From the IMG/VR virus record IMGVR_UViG_2541047438_000019: a stretch of DNA of 5,563 nt. One strand, written 5' to 3'. Under the pieces are notes generated by a model, which worked only from the letters and a program-made list of their open reading frames with translations, had not been told where the DNA came from and made no database searches. Shown here in pieces: positions 301-4,449 of this stretch. Source of the DNA: a virus (taxonomy: Duplodnaviria > Heunggongvirae > Uroviricota > Caudoviricetes). The translations under genes were made by a program, and so were the position numbers. Position 1 is the stretch's first letter, and each line of letters opens with the position of its first letter.

Positions 301-501
301 ATGAATACAATCAAGTTTTCTTGCCCAGAATGTGGTGGCGAAGTCTTTGACACATCCTTTAAGCCGCAGGGCTCTGACAGTTTCGCGGGAGCCATCTGCA
401 AAAATTGTGGTCACCTTGTAACTGAAGATGAGTCCTCGCAGTTCGATGACGAAATCGTTGACAATATCTTCGGTGCACTCACCAGAGACTTTCTGAAGTA
501 A
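301..501 (+). CDS. small zinc-ribbon protein, 66 aa (CPEC-x21-CKNC, acidic C-terminus), function unknown
   Basis: ATG at 301 with GAGAGGAAA at 286-294 upstream (the track ORF starts at an in-frame TTG at 295). Two CxxC pairs 21 residues apart are unlikely by chance. Codons are mostly common E. coli codons. A perfect hairpin follows downstream. The fully overlapping reverse ORF 280-636 is its codon-for-codon antisense and uses rare Arg codons for 8 of 9 Arg. Confidence 0.5.
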   Translation: MNTIKFSCPECGGEVFDTSFKPQGSDSFAGAICKNCGHLVTEDESSQFDDEIVDNIFGALTRDFLK

Positions 502-582: not shown

Positions 583-819
583 TGCTTCTTTGCCGATCCC
601 GGGATGCCTTCCATTCTGATGTTTGACTTCGCCCACTGAGAAACCCTCTGTTTCCCCTTAACGCCGGGGTAGCGGAACAAAAAACTGCTGCATAGTTATT
701 AAAGTTGAACCCTGCCGTCATGTTCATACGCCTCGGGCTGGCTACTTAACCCCTGACCACTGCCGGGTAACTCGAAGTATTTCCCTGCGTTCTGTGGGGC
801 GGGGTGGGTTGGTATTTTT

Positions 820-862
820 AGTTTAATAAACATTAAACTTAAGTCAAGTAAAAACTAAACCG
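820..862 (-). promoter_or_regulatory. distal operator-like module with a sigma70-like promoter on the minus strand (TTGACT-N16-TAAACT), near-duplicate of the module at 1835-1884
   Basis: GTTTAATAAAC (821-831, palindromic) + ATTAAACT + AAAAACTAAACCG (850-862) matches GTTTATTAAAC + ACTAAACT + AAAAAAACACTAAACCG at 1846-1884. Minus-strand TTGACT (complement of 842-847) and TAAACT (complement of 820-825) are separated by 16 bp. Confidence 0.4.
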
Positions 863-867
863 CGGGA

Positions 868-912
868 CATAACAAACACAACGCTTTTGATAAAGTCGTT
901 GCGGTTGTTATG
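868..912. terminator. imperfect 16-bp hairpin (14 of 16 paired, 13-nt loop) 20 bp downstream of the parE-like stop; possible bidirectional terminator
   Basis: CATAACAAACACAACG (868-883) pairs with CGTTGCGGTTGTTATG (897-912). TTTCTATT follows on the plus strand; on the minus strand a T-rich tract follows after an 8-nt gap. Not folded computationally. Confidence 0.25.
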
Positions 913-931
913 TTTCTATTGGTAGTGAAAG

Positions 932-1210
932 TTAGGGAAACTGGCGTCTTGCGTGGATCACGTTTACTACTTCAACGCTTGATGTTGTTACGCGGTATAG
1001 AATTATATAGTTAGGGTGGGCTACAATCTCACGCAAGCCAGGTACTCTGTCGCTTGGTGGGTATAAATACGGATGTTCGGATAACGGCAGCACACAACCC
1101 CTTAATCGCTGCCATAAGCGTTCAGCCGCATCTATGTCGAAACGAGCAATATAACTAGTTATATCATCTAGGTCGGTATCTGCGCTTTCAAGCCATAACA
1201 CGGGTAACAT
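932..1210 (-). CDS. parE2: ParE/RelE-family type II toxin (ParE2-like), 92 aa
   Basis: Translation MLPVLWLESADTDLDDITSYIARFDIDAAERLWQRLRGCVLPLSEHPYLYPPSDRVPGLREIVAHPNYIILYRVTTSSVEVVNVIHARRQFP has the ParE pattern (DLDDI..YIA, EHPY, PGLRE..V..Y.I.YRV, V.V..V.HARR). ATG at 1210 lies 1 nt after the stop of the upstream small gene. The longer track ORF (to 1306) would overlap that gene; ParE proteins are about 90-100 aa. Confidence 0.85.
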   Translation of the reverse strand: MLPVLWLESADTDLDDITSYIARFDIDAAERLWQRLRGCVLPLSEHPYLYPPSDRVPGLREIVAHPNYIILYRVTTSSVEVVNVIHARRQFP

Positions 1211-1211
1211 T

Positions 1212-1403
1212 TTACTGCTTGCTCCGTTCCTTGCGCATCTTAGCAAAGCGTTCTGCCATTCTGCGCTCAACTTCGTCATGGGGAATTGCTGGGCGCGGAT
1301 CTGCAAGGCTCGTTGCTACTTTCGCACGCAGCCATTCGTTGTAACTGTTTTCTTGTTCAATGGTTTCAAATTCAGAAACCATTGGTGAAAGGGCTCTATT
1401 CAT
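1212..1403 (-). CDS. paaA2: small antitoxin partnered with ParE (PaaA2-like), 63 aa
   Basis: ATG at 1403 preceded by GGAGGA (complement of 1409-1414). Translation MNRALSPMVSEFETIEQENSYNEWLRAKVATSLADPRPAIPHDEVERRMAERFAKMRKERSKQ matches my recollection of the short PaaA2 antitoxin of E. coli O157:H7. It sits immediately upstream of the ParE gene in the same operon. The track N-terminal extension (to 1457) would overlap the regulator gene. Confidence 0.8.
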   Translation of the reverse strand: MNRALSPMVSEFETIEQENSYNEWLRAKVATSLADPRPAIPHDEVERRMAERFAKMRKERSKQ

Positions 1404-1423
1404 GTTTCCTCCGGTTTTATAAC

Positions 1424-1795
1424 TCAGGCGCGGCGGCATTTTTGCGCCGCAATCCATCTCGCTATGAGATCTTCCATTGATTCTTTTTTCTGCTTTAACT
1501 CGCTGATTATCTGGCGTTGCTCATCCTCAGGGAAGGCTGAAAAAATCTGCAATAATTCCAGTTGATTAGACGTTAACCCTGCATGTGGTGGAGAACCCCC
1601 CGGTTGTTCTGCGTATTCCGCATCCAGATACCCTTCCGGCATCCCGTATGTTTGCTCTATTCTTCTGGCAGCCTTTTCTCCAAACGAGGCTCTCCCACTC
1701 ATTAGTTGAGATAGGTAGCTCTTCTCTTTGGGTGGCAGAGTTTTATCTTTAAACCACTCCTTGAGACGTAAACGGCGAATTTCTTTTTTTTGCAT
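1424..1795 (-). CDS. paaR2: CI-like phage repressor / regulator of the toxin-antitoxin operon (PaaR2-like), 123 aa, N-terminal helix-turn-helix, no LexA-type peptidase domain
   Basis: Helix-turn-helix-like N-terminus (KSYLSQLMSGRASFGEKAARRIEQTYGMPEGYLD) resembles phage CI repressor DNA-binding domains. Sits at the cI position, divergent from a cro-like gene across an operator-bearing spacer. Start taken at ATG 1795 (MQKKEIRRL); the track start at GTG 1858 would add a hydrophobic 21-aa extension lying over the operator region. Confidence 0.8.
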   Translation of the reverse strand: MQKKEIRRLRLKEWFKDKTLPPKEKSYLSQLMSGRASFGEKAARRIEQTYGMPEGYLDAEYAEQPGGSPPHAGLTSNQLELLQIFSAFPEDEQRQIISELKQKKESMEDLIARWIAAQKCRRA

Positions 1796-1892
1796 GTGGT
1801 AATTATCTTTAGTAATCACTAAACAAGCAAATACTTGACTTAATGGTTTATTAAACACTAAACTCGCAAAAAAACACTAAACCGAGGAAGGT
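1796..1892. promoter_or_regulatory. divergent promoter/operator region (OR-like) between the repressor gene and the cro-like gene
   Basis: Three direct copies of CACTAAAC (1817-1824, 1856-1863, 1875-1882); palindromes TTTAGT-N4-ACTAAA (1808-1823) and GTTTATTAAAC (1846-1856). Candidate plus-strand promoter TTGACT (1835-1840)-N18-TAAACT (1859-1864) for ydaS. Candidate minus-strand promoter TTGCTT (complement of 1825-1830)-N16-GATAAT (complement of 1803-1808) for paaR2. Confidence 0.6.
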
Positions 1893-2195
1893 ATGACATT
1901 AAAAGAGTTTATTAAATCATTAAGGGTTGGTGATGCTAAGAAATTCGCGGCCAGACTTGGTGTATCGCCATCTTACTTATCGCAAATGGCGTCTGGACGA
2001 ACAGCTATATCTCCAACCCGCGCCCTTATGATCGAATCTGCGACGGAAGGCCAAGTAAGTAGGGCGGAGCTACGACCCCATGATTGGGAGCTTATTTGGC
2101 CTGAGTATGCGAGCGGCATTCGTTTGGGGCAAACACATGTAGTTCATGCTGAAGGTGATTGTAGTGCATGCTTATCTGATGGAGTTGATTCATGA
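1893..2195 (+). CDS. ydaS: Cro-like helix-turn-helix regulator, YdaS family, 100 aa
   Basis: ATG at 1893 preceded by GAGGAAGG. Translation contains FAARLGVSPSYLSQMASGRTAISPTRALMIESATEGQVSRAELRP, the YdaS/Cro-type helix-turn-helix pattern. First gene of the rightward operon, divergent from the repressor. Confidence 0.85.
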   Translation: MTLKEFIKSLRVGDAKKFAARLGVSPSYLSQMASGRTAISPTRALMIESATEGQVSRAELRPHDWELIWPEYASGIRLGQTHVVHAEGDCSACLSDGVDS

Positions 2196-2617
2196 AAATC
2201 AAGCATGAACACATCCGCATGGCGATGAATGTCTGGGCGCATCCGGACGGCGAAAAAGTACCGGCTGCGAAAATTACCAAAGCGTATTTCGAGCTGGGAA
2301 TGACGTTCCCGGAACTGTATGACGACAGCCATCCGGAAGCCATGGCTCGCAATACTCAGAAAATTTTCCGCTGGGTGGAGAAAGACACTCCTGATGCGGT
2401 TAAAAAAATTCAGGCGTTGTTACCAGCGATCGAAAAAGCGATGCCGCCTCCGCTGGTGGCCCGAATGCGCAGCCACAGTTCCGCTTATTTTCGGGAGTTG
2501 GTAGAGACGAAGGAACGGCTGGTGAAAGATATTGATGATTTCGTTGCATCAGCGATCGTTCTGTTCGATCAGATGAATCGTGGTGGCCCGGCAGGAAACA
2601 CTCTGGCTGTGCATTAA
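2192..2617 (+). CDS. ydaT: YdaT-family protein (CII-like regulator of lambdoid/Rac-type prophages), 141 aa
   Basis: Starts MKIKHEHI, typical of YdaT-family proteins. ATG 2192-2194 overlaps the ydaS stop (ATGA at 2192-2195); GGAG at 2181-2184. Conserved ydaS-ydaT gene order. Confidence 0.85.
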   Translation: MKIKHEHIRMAMNVWAHPDGEKVPAAKITKAYFELGMTFPELYDDSHPEAMARNTQKIFRWVEKDTPDAVKKIQALLPAIEKAMPPPLVARMRSHSSAYFRELVETKERLVKDIDDFVASAIVLFDQMNRGGPAGNTLAVH

Positions 2618-2630
2618 TTGGGTAATAAAT

Positions 2631-3140
2631 ATGAGTAATGACAAAAAATTGACACTGAGCGTTTACGAAAACAGTCCGCACATCTGGCGTGGCGGTTTAT
2701 CTGATGTGGAGCTGGCAGAGTGGTTGATACATAAAGCTAATGCGCTGCTCTGGCGTTTGTCAGCCAGAGAACAGCGCAAGGAAACCAGAATAAAGCTGGC
2801 TGATGCAGAAGCGTGTGCCGGGCTTATTGAGGATTATACAAATCTTGGTATTTCTTCAGCAGAGAGTGATCCCATTCAGCCTCTGAGCAGGGAGTCAATC
2901 CAGCACGCTGGTTGTATGGCACATCTTGTAACTGCTCGTCAACATGAGGTGGGTATTGGATCACTTCCGGCGGGATATTCGCTGATTCCAGAGCTGGTTG
3001 AAGCAAGAAAATCAGTTCAGAAAAAGAGAGATGACGCACTTCAATTATTGAGAGAGCACTATGGCGCGATACCAGAATGCGAACAGCGTCGATACCCTGA
3101 AGGTTATGAATGGATGCAGTCTCTTTTTGAAGTTCGCTAA
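2631..3140 (+). CDS. hypothetical protein, 169 aa, no recognisable family
   Basis: ATG at 2631 (MSNDKKLTLSVYEN...) 13 nt after the ydaT stop, weak SD. Same strand as the surrounding early operon and protein-like composition (about 6 percent Gly). The track start at GTG 2580 would overlap ydaT by 38 nt. The strand is not fully resolved: antisense ORF 2824-3279 has a perfect SD (see findings). Confidence 0.5.
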   Translation: MSNDKKLTLSVYENSPHIWRGGLSDVELAEWLIHKANALLWRLSAREQRKETRIKLADAEACAGLIEDYTNLGISSAESDPIQPLSRESIQHAGCMAHLVTARQHEVGIGSLPAGYSLIPELVEARKSVQKKRDDALQLLREHYGAIPECEQRRYPEGYEWMQSLFEVR

Positions 3141-3357
3141 TCAATATGTCGAGACGAAGGTATGTTTCGGCGCGCAGCCAGGCTCTGTAATCCGGGAGCA
3201 TTTCGGGGCTGTTACACCAGCGGTTTGTTGCTGCAACATTTAATACATGAGCCTGATAAAGGCTTTTCAAAAAATACATGTCGAACCTCCTCTGGTTCTG
3301 TCGATTGGGAACCACAGATTATATCCGGAGGAAGGTTCGGCACCAGATGAGGTAGCC

Positions 3358-4449
3358 ATGCGTGATTACGCAAAAGTTTCTCCGCGATTCTGGCTGGGAG
3401 AAACGGGGAGAGAACTTAGAAAGGCGGGTGCAGAAGCGCAAGTTGTTGCTTTTTACCTGATGACATCCCCTCACGCAAATATGCTGGGTTTGTATTACCT
3501 GCCAGTTTTATACCTTGCTCATGAAACCGGGCTTGGTCTGGAAGGGGCTTCAAAGGGGCTTAAAAGGGCTGTTGAAGCTGGTTTTTGTAGCTATGACCAT
3601 GATGCAGAGATGGTCTGGGTCCATGAAATGGCAGCCTGGCAGGTTGGGGAAACGTTGAAGCCTGGCGATAACCGTTGTGCAGGTGTCAGGAATGAGTATG
3701 CATCATTACCTGAAAACGCTTTTCTGTCAGTGTTTTACGACAGATATAAAACGGATTTCCATCTGGATGTGAGGCGGAATAATAGCCGAAATTCGGTAAG
3801 GGGCTTCGAAGGGGCTTTTAAGGGGCTTCGAAGCCAAGAACAGGAACAGGAGCAGGAGAAAGAACAGGAACAGGACAAAAACACTATGGTTCATGGCAAA
3901 AAAAACACCACGAACCAGGCAGGGGATGTTCAGACCGTCAATCCTGGTCAGCCAGCAGGCACGACACCGGAAGCCGATTCGGGCGCTGTGCAGCAGGTGA
4001 TGACCGCAGGGTCGGAGCAATCACACCAACTGCAGCAGCCTGAAGCCGATTCCGCCATTCAGCGGGAAGCCGATCGGGTAGTCCCGGAAAGCACCGGGCA
4101 GTCTGTGGGACGAGTGGATTATCCGGATGTGTTCGAACAGGTCTGGCGGGAATACCCGTTGCGTGCTGGGGCAAACCCGAAGAAATCCGCTTTCAGTGCC
4201 TGGAAGGCCAGATTGCGCGAGGGGGTGCCACCAGAGACCATGCTGGATGGTGTGAGGCGTTACGCGAGATACCTGGCGGCGACCGGGAAAGCGGGAACGG
4301 AATTTGTTCAGCGAGCGACGACGTTTTTTGGGCCGGACCGGAATTTTGAAAACCCCTGGTTGCTCCCGGTAAGCGGCACGAACAACCAGCGTTGTGTGAA
4401 TCATATTTCTGAACCGGATACCGAAATTCCGCCGGGATTCAGGGGGTGA
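3358..4449 (+). CDS. phage replication initiation / replisome-organiser protein (O-like role), 363 aa, with low-complexity linker
   Basis: Sits immediately upstream of and coupled to a DnaC-like loader gene. C-terminal segment FEQVWREYPLRAGANPKKSAFSAWKARLREG...FFGPDRNFENPW resembles the conserved motif of phage replisome-organiser proteins as I recall it. Iteron-like DNA repeats lie inside the gene. Start chosen at ATG 3358 (GAGGT 5 nt upstream); an in-frame ATG at 3247 lacks an SD and is the alternative. Confidence 0.7.
   Translation: MRDYAKVSPRFWLGETGRELRKAGAEAQVVAFYLMTSPHANMLGLYYLPVLYLAHETGLGLEGASKGLKRAVEAGFCSYDHDAEMVWVHEMAAWQVGETLKPGDNRCAGVRNEYASLPENAFLSVFYDRYKTDFHLDVRRNNSRNSVRGFEGAFKGLRSQEQEQEQEKEQEQDKNTMVHGKKNTTNQAGDVQTVNPGQPAGTTPEADSGAVQQVMTAGSEQSHQLQQPEADSAIQREADRVVPESTGQSVGRVDYPDVFEQVWREYPLRAGANPKKSAFSAWKARLREGVPPETMLDGVRRYARYLAATGKAGTEFVQRATTFFGPDRNFENPWLLPVSGTNNQRCVNHISEPDTEIPPGFRG
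3542..3570. repeat. iteron-like direct repeats, cluster 1: AAGGGGCTT / AAAGGGGCTT / AAAAGGGCT at 10-11-bp spacing
   Basis: Read directly: GAAGGGGCTTCAAAGGGGCTTAAAAGGGCT. The repeat period is not a multiple of 3, so codon repetition does not explain it. Confidence 0.5.
3798..3830. repeat. iteron-like direct repeats, cluster 2: three tandem 11-bp units AAGGGGCTT(C/T)(G/T); candidate replication-origin core inside the initiator gene
   Basis: AAGGGGCTTCG (3798-3808), AAGGGGCTTTT (3809-3819), AAGGGGCTTCG (3820-3830), one helical turn apart, followed by a hexanucleotide repeat and an A-rich stretch. Confidence 0.55.
3838..3876. repeat. tandem hexanucleotide repeat (GAACAG/GAGCAG) encoding an EQEQEQEKEQEQ linker
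   Basis: GAACAGGAACAGGAGCAGGAGAAAGAACAGGAACAGGAC read directly, in frame with the replication gene. Confidence 0.8.

What the first reader, a model, noticed from the sequence alone, without database searches (positions are those of the whole stretch)
1796..1892. Operator region with three CACTAAAC repeats, back-to-back promoters, and a likely leaderless repressor mRNA
Three direct CACTAAAC copies plus two palindromes fill the 97-bp spacer. One copy lies in the spacer of the candidate repressor promoter, one overlaps the -10 (TAAACT) of the candidate ydaS promoter, and one lies just downstream of it, an OR1-3-like arrangement. The minus-strand -10 (GATAAT) ends about 7 nt from the repressor ATG with no SD between, predicting a leaderless or near-leaderless transcript, as for lambda cI from PRM.
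Basis: partly seen in the sequence, partly recalled or inferred. Interest (0 to 1): 0.55.

Follow-up and report, generated by a model that had tools for sequence, protein, structure and literature searches.

The report
Known PaaR2/YdaS prophage switch operator

Summary
Three exact CACTAAAC copies lie at 1817, 1856 and 1875. A ydaS promoter (TTGACT-18-TAAACT) faces right, and a weak repressor promoter faces left. The -10 of that repressor promoter (GATAAT) ends 6 nt before the repressor ATG, with no Shine-Dalgarno sequence.

Window 780-2200 is 100% identical to prophage Sp12/CP-933P of E. coli O157:H7. For that sequence, Jurenas et al. 2021 (PMC8630535) already published:
- 5' RACE mapping of both promoters;
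- proof that paaR2 is leaderless (N-terminal sequence MQKKE, mass spectrometry);
- EMSA and DNase I footprints of PaaR2 and YdaS on this 97-bp spacer;
- reporter assays, an OL/PL region, and a YdaT-activated PRE.

My comparison with 26 homologous loci from other genera refines the reading. CACTAAAC is a half-site of 18-bp quasi-palindromic operators (consensus GTTTAGTAATTACTAAAC). Only two full palindromes (1807-1824 and 1846-1863) are conserved. The third copy is a lone half-site found only in the CP-933P lineage, and the middle operator is inverted relative to the homologues. The direct-repeat relation is therefore not conserved.

The -10 / 6 nt / ATG leaderless geometry is kept in 14 loci, with 5 or 7 nt in two more.

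Verdict: real, correctly interpreted, already known. Interest is low.

The parts
1424..1795 (-). paaR2, the CI-like repressor (123 aa, starts MQKKE), translated from a leaderless mRNA
   Evidence: ORF. DNA is 100% identical to Sakai ECs_2279, annotated 'phage repressor protein CI'. PDB 7NKV/8C3K/8C3L hold its N-terminal domain. Leaderless translation is shown in PMC8630535.
1802..1807 (-). PRM933P -10 hexamer GATAAT. It ends 6 nt before the ATG, so the transcription start is the A of the ATG at 1795.
   Evidence: Sequence. A 5' RACE start at the start codon is reported in PMC8630535. The equivalent hexamer (CAAAAT or CACAAT) sits at the same position in the 17 compact homologue loci.
1825..1830 (-). 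PRM933P -35 hexamer TTGCTT (3 of 6 consensus positions, 17-nt spacer)
   Evidence: Sequence. TTGCTT is at least 90% conserved among 24 unique homologue sequences. The paper finds PRM weaker than PR and activated by low PaaR2.
1807..1824 (.). Operator IR1, CTTTAGTAATCACTAAAC. Its right half is CACTAAAC copy 1. It fills the PRM spacer and touches the PRM -10.
   Evidence: It scores 21.8 with a matrix built only from homologue sites; shuffled windows reached 11.4 at the 95th percentile. The 18-bp inverted repeats with consensus GTTTAGTAA are described in PMC8630535.
1827..1844 (.). Degenerate operator IR2, GCAAATACTTGACTTAAT. Only the right half (TGACTTAAT) resembles a half-site. It covers the two back-to-back -35 elements.
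   Evidence: [quoted passage not shown] It is not detected by the palindrome matrix.
1835..1840 (+). PR933P -35 hexamer TTGACT
   Evidence: Promoter scan. Conserved in the homologues.
1846..1863 (.). Operator IR3, GTTTATTAAACACTAAAC. Its right half is CACTAAAC copy 2. It overlaps the PR spacer and -10.
   Evidence: It is the best matrix hit in the window, at 25.7. It is the exact reverse complement, relative to paaR2, of the commonest homologue IR3.
1859..1864 (+). PR933P -10 hexamer TAAACT. The predicted ydaS transcription start is near 1871.
   Evidence: Promoter scan. The paper says the 5' RACE start is in line with the predicted promoter. The exact +1 is shown only in a figure that I could not read.
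1865..1882 (.). IR4, CGCAAAAAAACACTAAAC. A lone right half-site (CACTAAAC copy 3) at about +4 to +12 of the ydaS transcript.
   Evidence: Its full-palindrome score is -1.6. It is absent from all 26 homologue loci. IR1 to IR4 span 76 bp, close to the roughly 78-bp PaaR2 footprint.
1884..1890 (+). Shine-Dalgarno sequence of ydaS (GAGGAAG)
   Evidence: Sequence.
1893..2195 (+). ydaS, the Cro-like regulator that binds the same spacer
   Evidence: Pfam YdaS_toxin at 3.3e-12 and HTH_3. PDB 8C7K is identical over residues 1-100. EMSA and footprint are in PMC8630535. It shares the SYLSQxxSGR helix with PaaR2.
820..860 (-). PL933P with OL operators: -35 TTGACT (847-842), 16-nt spacer, -10 TAAACT (825-820); operator-like sites at 821-838 and 843-860
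   Evidence: Promoter scan. Matrix scores are 21.8 and 13.0. PL933P and OL1-3, repressed by PaaR2 and YdaS, are reported in PMC8630535.
932..1403 (-). paaA2 (1212-1403) and parE2 (932-1210), the antitoxin and toxin co-transcribed with paaR2
   Evidence: Pfam PaaA2 at 1e-19 and ParE_toxin at 1.9e-16. Sakai annotation.
2185..2202 (.). YdaT operator OM, TTGATTCATGAAAATCAA, at the ydaS/ydaT junction (PRE region)
   Evidence: Exact match, with 0.03 expected by chance. The site is defined in PMC9986795.

Best explanation
The spacer is the right operator (OR) of the lambdoid immunity switch of cryptic prophage CP-933P/Sp12.

Layout. Two back-to-back sigma-70 promoters have -35 hexamers only 4 bp apart. 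They drive paaR2-paaA2-parE2 leftward (PRM, weak) and ydaS-ydaT rightward (PR, strong). PRM starts transcription on the A of the paaR2 AUG, so the repressor mRNA has no leader and no Shine-Dalgarno sequence, as for lambda cI.

Binding sites. PaaR2 (the CI analogue) and YdaS (the Cro analogue) have related helix-turn-helix domains and compete for the same sites. These sites are 18-bp quasi-palindromes with consensus GTTTAGTAA|TTACTAAAC. They sit 19-20 bp apart, about two helical turns, so they lie on one face of the DNA. IR1 (over the PRM spacer and -10) and IR3 (over the PR spacer and -10) are full operators. IR2 (over the -35 pair) and IR4 (just after the PR start) are half-operators.

Inferred order of events. 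The half-operators are probably filled cooperatively by oligomeric PaaR2, giving the continuous footprint of about 78 bp. Low PaaR2 occupies the best site (IR3) and its neighbours, which shuts PR and stimulates PRM. High PaaR2 also fills IR1 and shuts PRM. YdaS fills the PRM side first and its own promoter later.

What is shown and what is inferred. Shown experimentally for this exact sequence: promoter positions, leaderless translation, binding of both proteins, mutual repression, activation by low PaaR2, and bistability. Inferred here: the 18-bp palindrome rather than the direct repeat is the recognition unit; which site fills first; and cooperative filling of the half-sites.

Confidence. 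The stated 0.9 applies to the identity and overall mechanism. For the palindrome-versus-direct-repeat sub-claim my confidence is about 0.7.
For: Identity with CP-933P/Sp12. Window 780-2200 is 100% identical (H65). The 97-bp spacer matches Sakai exactly.

Published experiments on that sequence (PMC8630535): 5' RACE, N-terminal sequencing (MQKKE), mass spectrometry, EMSA, DNase I footprints, gfp reporters, PL/OL, and PRE activated by YdaT.

Sequence anatomy..

Statistics. Three copies of an 8-mer occurred in 75 of 20,000 Markov simulations.

Comparative evidence:
- 26 PaaR2-homologue loci from Photorhabdus, Xenorhabdus, Yersinia, Erwinia, Raoultella, Enterobacter, Massilia, Mycoavidus and others keep a nearly invariant core, GTCAAGTATTTGCTTGTTTAGnnATTACTAATCAAAAT, plus a second palindrome, GTTTATTAAACACTAAAC.
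- The 6 nt between the -10 and the ATG are variable and carry no conserved Shine-Dalgarno sequence.
- The ATG lies exactly 6 nt after the -10 in 14 loci, and 5 or 7 nt after it in two more.
- A matrix built only from homologue sites picks out 1846-1863, 1807-1824, 821-838 and 843-860 as the top four hits in the window. Its consensus half-site equals the paper's GTTTAGTAA.
- The middle operator is inverted in the window relative to the homologues, and the third copy is absent elsewhere. This argues that orientation is irrelevant, as expected for a symmetric dimer on a palindrome.

Shared recognition helix. PaaR2 residues 3-48 align with YdaS residues 4-49 at 35% identity, with SYLSQxxSGR in common. 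This helix is invariant in both families.
Against: [quoted passage not shown]

IR2 and IR4 are poor palindromes, yet the PaaR2 footprint covers them. In CP-933P the 11-mer AAACACTAAAC is repeated exactly, which could mean that a direct-repeat mode has been selected in this lineage.

Figures and Table S1 of the paper are not held as text. I therefore could not map the published +1 of PR, the footprint borders or OR1-3 onto coordinates. My IR2 and IR4 coordinates and the order of site filling are inferences.
Confidence: 0.9

Rival explanations
1. The recognition units are the direct repeats themselves. PaaR2 and/or YdaS would bind head-to-tail to (A)AACACTAAAC units at 1817, 1856 and 1875. These correspond to the paper's 'pseudosymmetrical OR1-OR3' overlapping IR1, IR3 and IR4. 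The palindromic left halves would be secondary.
For: There are three exact 8-mers, two of which are exact 11-mers. A 24-nt direct repeat, 1808-1831 against 1847-1870, is 83% identical. The paper lists three operators overlapping IR1, IR3 and IR4 and leaves both modes open. The PaaR2 footprint of about 78 bp reaches IR4, which has only the direct-repeat half.
Against: In 26 homologous loci with the same recognition helix, the two CAC-type half-sites are inverted relative to each other, and there is no third copy. Positions 7-8 of the IR1 half-site (the 'CA' of CACTAAAC) vary freely among the homologues, while the outer GTTTA/TAAAC and the opposite half TTACTAATC are at least 90% conserved. HTH_3/Cro-type dimers typically bind dyad-symmetric sites (established knowledge).
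Confidence: 0.15
2. The repeats are a chance product of AT-rich promoter DNA and have no operator function.
For: The spacer is AT-rich. With one mismatch allowed, the motif is not enriched window-wide.
Against: Clustering of three exact copies is rare in simulations. There is strong cross-genus conservation. Published footprints and reporter assays exist for the identical sequence.
Confidence: 0.01
3. The repressor is not leaderless. It would start at the upstream in-frame GTG at 1858, giving the 144-aa ORF 1424-1858, so the 'spacer' would be partly coding.
For: the ORF listing reports an open frame from the GTG at 1858 with no stop before the ATG.
Against: N-terminal sequencing gave MQKKE, and the intact mass fits the 123-aa product expressed from its own promoter. 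The homologues begin at the aligned Met, with a fixed 6-nt gap after the -10. A GTG start at 1858 would lie upstream of the -10 and -35 assigned to PRM.
Confidence: 0.01

Closest known systems
OR region (PRM933P/PR933P) of cryptic prophage CP-933P / Sp12 of E. coli O157:H7, regulated by PaaR2 and YdaS (Jurenas et al. 2021, mBio, PMC8630535)
   Same: It is the same sequence. Window 780-2200 is 100% identical to Sakai Sp12. The match covers the 97-bp spacer, paaR2, paaA2, parE2, ydaS and PL/OL.
   Different: The switch itself does not differ. The window comes from a mosaic relative. Downstream of ydaT it carries an extra ORF (2631-3140) and a different O-like replication gene. Identity to Sakai ends at 2617 and resumes at 84% from 4387.
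Bacteriophage lambda OR with PRM/PR, CI/Cro and leaderless cI
   Same: Both have divergent back-to-back promoters. Here the starts are about 76 bp apart; in lambda they are about 82 bp apart (from memory). In both, repressor and Cro-type protein compete for shared operators that overlap both promoters. In both, low repressor activates PRM and high repressor represses it. Both have a leaderless repressor mRNA, a second operator set at PL, and a CII-like activator of a PRE promoter.
   Different: There is no detectable sequence similarity between PaaR2/YdaS/YdaT and CI/Cro/CII (paper), and PaaR2 has no Pfam hit. The operators are 18 bp at a 19-20 bp pitch: two full and two half sites, rather than three full 17-bp sites. 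One half-site lies downstream of the PR start. PaaR2 lacks the S24 autocleavage domain, so it is not SOS-inducible. A toxin-antitoxin pair replaces rexAB.
RacR / YdaS / YdaT module of the E. coli K-12 Rac prophage
   Same: The gene order is the same: repressor, then divergent ydaS-ydaT, then replication genes. The repressor silences ydaS-ydaT from the intergenic region (PMC5700373 and PMC5700377, listed).
   Different: The Rac YdaS and YdaT are only 26% and 31% identical to the CP-933P proteins. RacR is a different repressor, and the operators are different sequences. I did not examine the Rac spacer.
S24-peptidase CI-type repressors with a PaaR2-like N-terminal domain (Yersinia, Erwinia, Mycoavidus and other prophages found here)
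   Same: They have the same N-terminal DNA-binding domain, with KEKSYLSQL invariant. They share a nearly identical promoter and operator core, a divergent YdaS-like gene, and the same -10 / 6 nt / ATG geometry.
   Different: They carry a C-terminal Peptidase_S24 domain, so they are presumably RecA-cleavable. They have only two operators in a dyad-symmetric arrangement, without the third CACTAAAC copy. None is characterised experimentally, as far as my searches show.

Membership tests
CP-933P/Sp12 PaaR2-YdaS immunity switch | Sequence identity of the spacer and both regulator genes with the characterised locus | tested here: met
   100% identity over window 780-2200 to Sakai Sp12. The 97-bp spacer is found exactly in L001. 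PDB 7NKV (PaaR2 N-terminal domain) and 8C7K (YdaS) match at E-values of 5e-41 and 1.5e-63.
CP-933P/Sp12 PaaR2-YdaS immunity switch | paaR2 followed by paaA2-parE2 in one operon | tested here: met
   Pfam PaaA2 and ParE_toxin on the two ORFs downstream of paaR2. The layout is the same as Sakai ECs_2279-2281.
CP-933P/Sp12 PaaR2-YdaS immunity switch | Second operator and promoter set (PL933P/OL) with the same -35 and -10 as PR | tested here: met
   Minus-strand TTGACT-16-TAAACT at 847-820. Operator-like sites at 821-838 and 843-860.
Lambdoid CI/Cro-type genetic switch (functional class) | Divergent repressor and cro-like genes separated by a short spacer with back-to-back promoters | tested here: met
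   plus hand placement of PRM. 5' RACE is in PMC8630535.
Lambdoid CI/Cro-type genetic switch (functional class) | Both regulators bind the same multipartite operator, which overlaps both promoters | not testable with these tools
   Shown by EMSA and DNase I footprinting in PMC8630535. Supported here only indirectly, by the shared recognition helix and the conserved sites.
Lambdoid CI/Cro-type genetic switch (functional class) | Leaderless repressor mRNA from PRM | tested here: met
   The geometry is -10, 6 nt, ATG, with no Shine-Dalgarno sequence, and it is conserved in the homologues. The experimental proof is in PMC8630535.
Lambdoid CI/Cro-type genetic switch (functional class) | Repressor carries a LexA/S24-type autocleavage domain (SOS induction) | tested here: not met
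   PaaR2 (123 aa) has no Pfam domain at E<=0.01. The paper says it lacks the peptidase motif and does not respond to mitomycin C. Longer homologues do carry Peptidase_S24.
Lambda CI / Cro protein families (homology) | Detectable sequence similarity to lambda CI or Cro | tested here: inconclusive
   YdaS hits HTH_3 and, only below threshold, P22_Cro (16.2 bits against a cut-off of 30.2). PaaR2 hits nothing. The authors report no detectable similarity. The proteins are functional analogues, not demonstrated family members.

The most novel reading that the evidence does not exclude
The published work does not cover the comparative picture.

The PaaR2/YdaS operator-promoter core and its leaderless geometry form an almost invariant cassette shared by prophages of Gamma- and Betaproteobacteria. 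In these prophages the repressor C-terminal domains differ: a short oligomerising tail in some, an S24 peptidase in others.

The ancestral OR is a dyad-symmetric pair of operators. In the CP-933P lineage, local duplication and inversion flipped IR3 and added a downstream half-site (IR4). This created a same-orientation array at a 19-20 bp pitch.

That rearrangement might be what lets octameric, non-cleavable PaaR2 coat about 78 bp and lock PR. If so, it would be an adaptation that stabilises a cryptic prophage and its toxin-antitoxin cargo.
Probability: 0.3. Interest if true: 0.3.

Novelty: already known. Interest (0 to 1): 0.1.

Why it matters
It matters little as a discovery. The switch has been dissected experimentally, and structures of both DNA-binding proteins are deposited in the PDB.

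It does show that the first-stage reading can recover a real regulatory architecture from sequence alone: operators, divergent promoters and a leaderless mRNA.

The residual open point is the one the authors flag, namely the exact recognition sequence and the order in which sites are occupied. The cross-genus comparison made here narrows it. It favours 18-bp palindromes over direct repeats, and it marks the third repeat as a lineage-specific addition. The same operator region is present in about 11% of complete E. coli genomes, so the module is common.

Tried and rejected
- The consensus promoter scan did not report PRM, because its -35 matches only 3 of 6 positions. I placed PRM by hand and by conservation.
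- Table S1 and the figures of PMC8630535 are not held as text. I therefore could not transfer the published +1 of PR, the footprint borders or the OR1-3 coordinates.
- Table S2 lists only strains and plasmids.
- Literature searches for PaaR2, CP-933P and the PDB codes 7NKV, 8C3K, 8C3L, 8C7K and 8CO2 found no paper that defines the binding sites more precisely.
- A scan of IMG/VR for CACTAAAC-N11-CACTAAAC returned about 42 contigs nearly identical to CP-933P, plus unrelated hits. It found no diverged lineage with the tandem arrangement.
- Phage Evi carries the same immunity region with one substitution in the spacer, outside the repeats. This gives no informative variation.
- I considered and rejected the 144-aa GTG-initiated ORF as the repressor. 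I also considered and rejected chance.
- I did not run the large protein searches or structure prediction, because the answer did not depend on them.

Full report
**Observation**

The spacer 1796-1892 is exactly 97 bp. It lies between a minus-strand ORF that begins MQKKE (ATG at 1795) and a plus-strand ORF that starts at 1893.

CACTAAAC occurs three times without mismatch, at 1817-1824, 1856-1863 and 1875-1882. The copies extend to 11-mers with spacings of 39 and 19 bp. Three copies of any non-trivial 8-mer in a 97-bp sequence of this composition arose in 75 of 20,000 first-order Markov simulations and in none of 20,000 shuffles. The clustering is therefore not chance.

Two quasi-palindromes contain copies 1 and 2:
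- CTTTAGTAA|TCACTAAAC at 1807-1824;
- GTTTATTAA|ACACTAAAC at 1846-1863.

The promoter scan finds TTGACT-18-TAAACT at 1835-1864 on the + strand. Copy 2 overlaps its -10, and copy 3 follows 11 nt later.

On the minus strand, GATAAT (1807-1802) is followed by only six bases (TACCAC) and then the ATG. A 17-nt spacer upstream holds copy 1, and the -35 is TTGCTT (1830-1825). The scan missed this promoter because its -35 matches only 3 of 6 positions.

**What it is**

Window 780-2200 is 100% identical to prophage Sp12 of E. coli O157:H7 Sakai. There the genes are annotated 'phage repressor protein CI' and 'phage antirepressor protein Cro'. The 97-bp spacer is found exactly in that record.

Pfam identifies the two ORFs downstream of the repressor as PaaA2 and ParE. 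It identifies the divergent pair as YdaS and YdaT. PDB entries 7NKV, 8C3K and 8C3L are the N-terminal domain of this repressor. Entries 8C7K and 8CO2 are this YdaS.

The locus is therefore the paaR2-paaA2-parE2 / ydaS-ydaT immunity region of CP-933P (Sp12). The window itself comes from a mosaic relative. Identity with Sakai ends after ydaT at 2617 and resumes at 84% at 4387. The same spacer is present in about 600 of 5,426 complete E. coli genomes, almost always unchanged. It is also in phage Evi, with one substitution outside the repeats.

**What is already published**

Jurenas et al. 2021 (mBio, PMC8630535) studied exactly this 97-bp region. They report:
- promoters PRM933P and PR933P, predicted and then confirmed by 5' RACE;
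- a PRM start that coincides with the paaR2 start codon;
- translation of the leaderless mRNA, confirmed by N-terminal sequencing (MQKKE) and intact mass;
- binding of both PaaR2 and YdaS to the spacer in EMSA, with several complexes;
- a continuous DNase I footprint of about 78 bp for PaaR2;
- two protected stretches, of 27 and 32 bp, for YdaS, which binds the PRM side first;
- four equally spaced 18-bp inverted repeats with half-site consensus GTTTAGTAA, of which IR2 and IR4 lack conserved left halves;
- three 'pseudosymmetrical' operators OR1-3 that overlap IR1, IR3 and IR4.

Both proteins repress both promoters. Low PaaR2 activates PRM. A PL933P promoter with OL1-3 lies beyond parE2. YdaT activates a PRE promoter. 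The locus is bistable. The authors state that the precise binding sequences remain to be determined.

Prolic-Kalinsek et al. 2023 (PMC9986795) define the YdaT operator as TTGATTN6AATCAA. I find it at 2185-2202.

**Independent anatomy in the window**

IR1 is 1807-1824, IR3 is 1846-1863 and IR4 is 1865-1882. By equal spacing, IR2 is 1827-1844.

The half-site centres are 19-20 bp apart. IR1 to IR4 span 76 bp, which fits the PaaR2 footprint.

The two -35 hexamers are 4 bp apart (1825-1830 and 1835-1840). The transcription starts are about 76 bp apart.

PL is found on the minus strand at 847-820, with the same hexamers as PR.

**Comparative evidence (new here)**

A genome scan with PaaR2 returned 27 loci, with proteins 43-76% identical. 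They come from Photorhabdus, Xenorhabdus, Yersinia, Erwinia, Raoultella, Enterobacter, Morganella, Arsenophonus, Winslowiella, Massilia, Mycoavidus, Glomeribacter and others. Twenty-six of them carry a nearly invariant DNA core upstream of the repressor:

GTCAAGTATTTGCTTGTTTAGnnATTACTAATCA(A/C)AAT

This core holds the PR -35, the PRM -35, IR1 and the PRM -10. Most columns are at least 90% conserved among 24 unique sequences. Each locus also carries a second palindrome, GTTTATTAAACACTAAAC, 4-6 bp to the other side.

The bases between the -10 and the ATG are variable and hold no conserved Shine-Dalgarno sequence. The gap length, however, is fixed:
- exactly 6 nt in 14 loci;
- 5 and 7 nt in two others;
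- in one more locus (L011) the ATG is at that position but is out of frame by one base in an A7 run.

The leaderless geometry is therefore a family trait. Nine Photorhabdus and Xenorhabdus loci instead have 71-333 nt between the core and the start codon.

The divergent gene is YdaS-like in most loci.

Both protein families keep an invariant SYLSQ(L/M)xxG helix. PaaR2 residues 3-48 align with YdaS residues 4-49 at 35% identity. This fits their competition for the same sites.

Several homologues are 210-222 aa long and carry a Peptidase_S24 domain. PaaR2 has none.

**Half-site or direct repeat?**

I built a symmetrised weight matrix from the homologue sites only. Its consensus is GTTTAGTAATTACTAAAC, and its half-site equals the published one. 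It ranks the window's sites as follows:

| Window position | Score |
|---|---|
| 1846-1863 | 25.7 |
| 821-838 | 21.8 |
| 1807-1824 | 21.8 |
| 843-860 | 13.0 |

Shuffled windows reached a mean maximum of 6.1 and a 95th percentile of 11.4. IR4 scores -1.6 as a palindrome, and IR2 is not detected.

In the homologues, the two CAC-type half-sites face each other across the -35 pair, so the whole OR is dyad-symmetric. In the window, IR3 is the exact reverse complement of the commonest homologue IR3, which turns the two copies into direct repeats. The third copy is absent from all 26 homologue loci.

Positions 7-8 of the IR1 half-site (the 'CA' of CACTAAAC) vary freely among the homologues. The outer GTTTA/TAAAC and the opposite half-site do not.

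A 24-nt direct repeat (1808-1831 against 1847-1870, 83% identical) suggests that a local duplication produced the flipped IR3 and the extra half-site.

A scan of IMG/VR found the tandem arrangement only in near-identical copies of CP-933P.

I conclude that the recognition unit is the 18-bp palindrome.

**Mechanism**

Shown for this sequence by others:
- divergent promoters;
- leaderless paaR2;
- shared occupancy by PaaR2 and YdaS;
- mutual repression;
- activation of PRM at low PaaR2;
- PL/OL;
- PRE activated by YdaT;
- bistability.

Inferred here:
- dimers of either protein read 18-bp dyads that lie two helical turns apart;
- IR3, the best site, is filled first by PaaR2, blocking the PR -10;
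- IR2, centred about 40 bp upstream of the PRM start, or IR3, about 60 bp upstream, could provide the activating contact;
- IR1 gives negative autoregulation;
- IR4, at about +4 to +12 of ydaS, adds a downstream block that the homologues lack.

**Comparison and novelty**

The switch works like the lambda OR/PRM/PR switch, but it is not homologous to lambda in its proteins. It also fails one lambda feature, because the repressor has no S24 cleavage domain.

It is the CP-933P switch itself. The novelty class is 'already known', and interest is low.

The only increments are the comparative points above. The most novel reading still open is that the CP-933P-specific rearrangement is adaptive for locking the cryptic prophage.

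Noticed in passing
window 1907-1924 (inside ydaS, codons 5-11): An operator-like 18-mer, GTTTATTAAATCATTAAG, scores 8.5 with the homologue-derived matrix; about 0.3 hits at or above 8 are expected per shuffled window. It forms a 21-nt, 86% complementary inverted repeat with 1839-1859. It lies 42 bp from the centre of IR4. It could be a fifth weak site or a coding coincidence. It may lie outside the fragment footprinted in the paper.
   Followed up: partly
window 820-860: The PL933P/OL region is a partial inverted copy of OR. It has the same TTGACT and TAAACT hexamers. Relative to its promoter, its operator has the opposite orientation to the PR operator, which matches the homologues' PR arrangement.
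   Followed up: partly
window 2185-2202: An exact YdaT operator OM, TTGATTCATGAAAATCAA, spans the ydaS stop and the ydaT start, as published in PMC9986795.
   Followed up: yes
window 3537-3578 and 3793-3845 (inside the O-like replication gene 3247-4449): Two clusters of AAGGGGCTT-type repeats lie about 256 bp apart, followed by a duplicated AAGAACAGGAACAGGA. The layout recalls iterons of an origin embedded in the initiator gene, as in lambda O. This was not examined further.
   Followed up: no
window 2617-4387: There is a mosaic junction. Identity to Sakai Sp12 stops right after ydaT. The window then has an extra ORF (2631-3140, with no Pfam hit; RefSeq records that match the window include a feature named 'ECs1072 family phage-associated protein') and a different O-like gene. 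Similarity resumes at 84% in the DnaC-like gene.
   Followed up: partly
L014 1227-1444 (Xenorhabdus khoisanae): A 21-bp tandem array of 10.4 copies (consensus GTTATGTGTACGGTAAATAGT) is inserted between the conserved PRM-like promoter and the repressor start codon. It gives a leader of about 310 nt.
   Followed up: partly
L002-L008 and L015 (Photorhabdus and Xenorhabdus): These homologues keep the operator and promoter core, but the repressor ATG lies 48 nt or more downstream of the predicted start, with no obvious Shine-Dalgarno sequence. The leaderless design was therefore lost, or replaced, in this clade.
   Followed up: no
L017-L022, L025 and L026: The PaaR2-type N-terminal DNA-binding domain and the same operators occur fused to a Peptidase_S24 C-terminal domain (three of these eight proteins were tested in Pfam). 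This implies domain swapping between SOS-cleavable and non-cleavable repressors of one immunity specificity.
   Followed up: partly
L018 and L020 (Erwinia): The six bases between the -10 and the ATG read GGGAGG or AGGAGG. That is a Shine-Dalgarno-like sequence with zero spacing to the start codon, at a position predicted to be upstream of the transcription start.
   Followed up: no
window 301-501: A small + strand ORF (66 aa) has two CxxC pairs and gives only sub-threshold zinc-ribbon hits. It lies downstream of PL but on the opposite strand. [quoted passage not shown]
   Followed up: no
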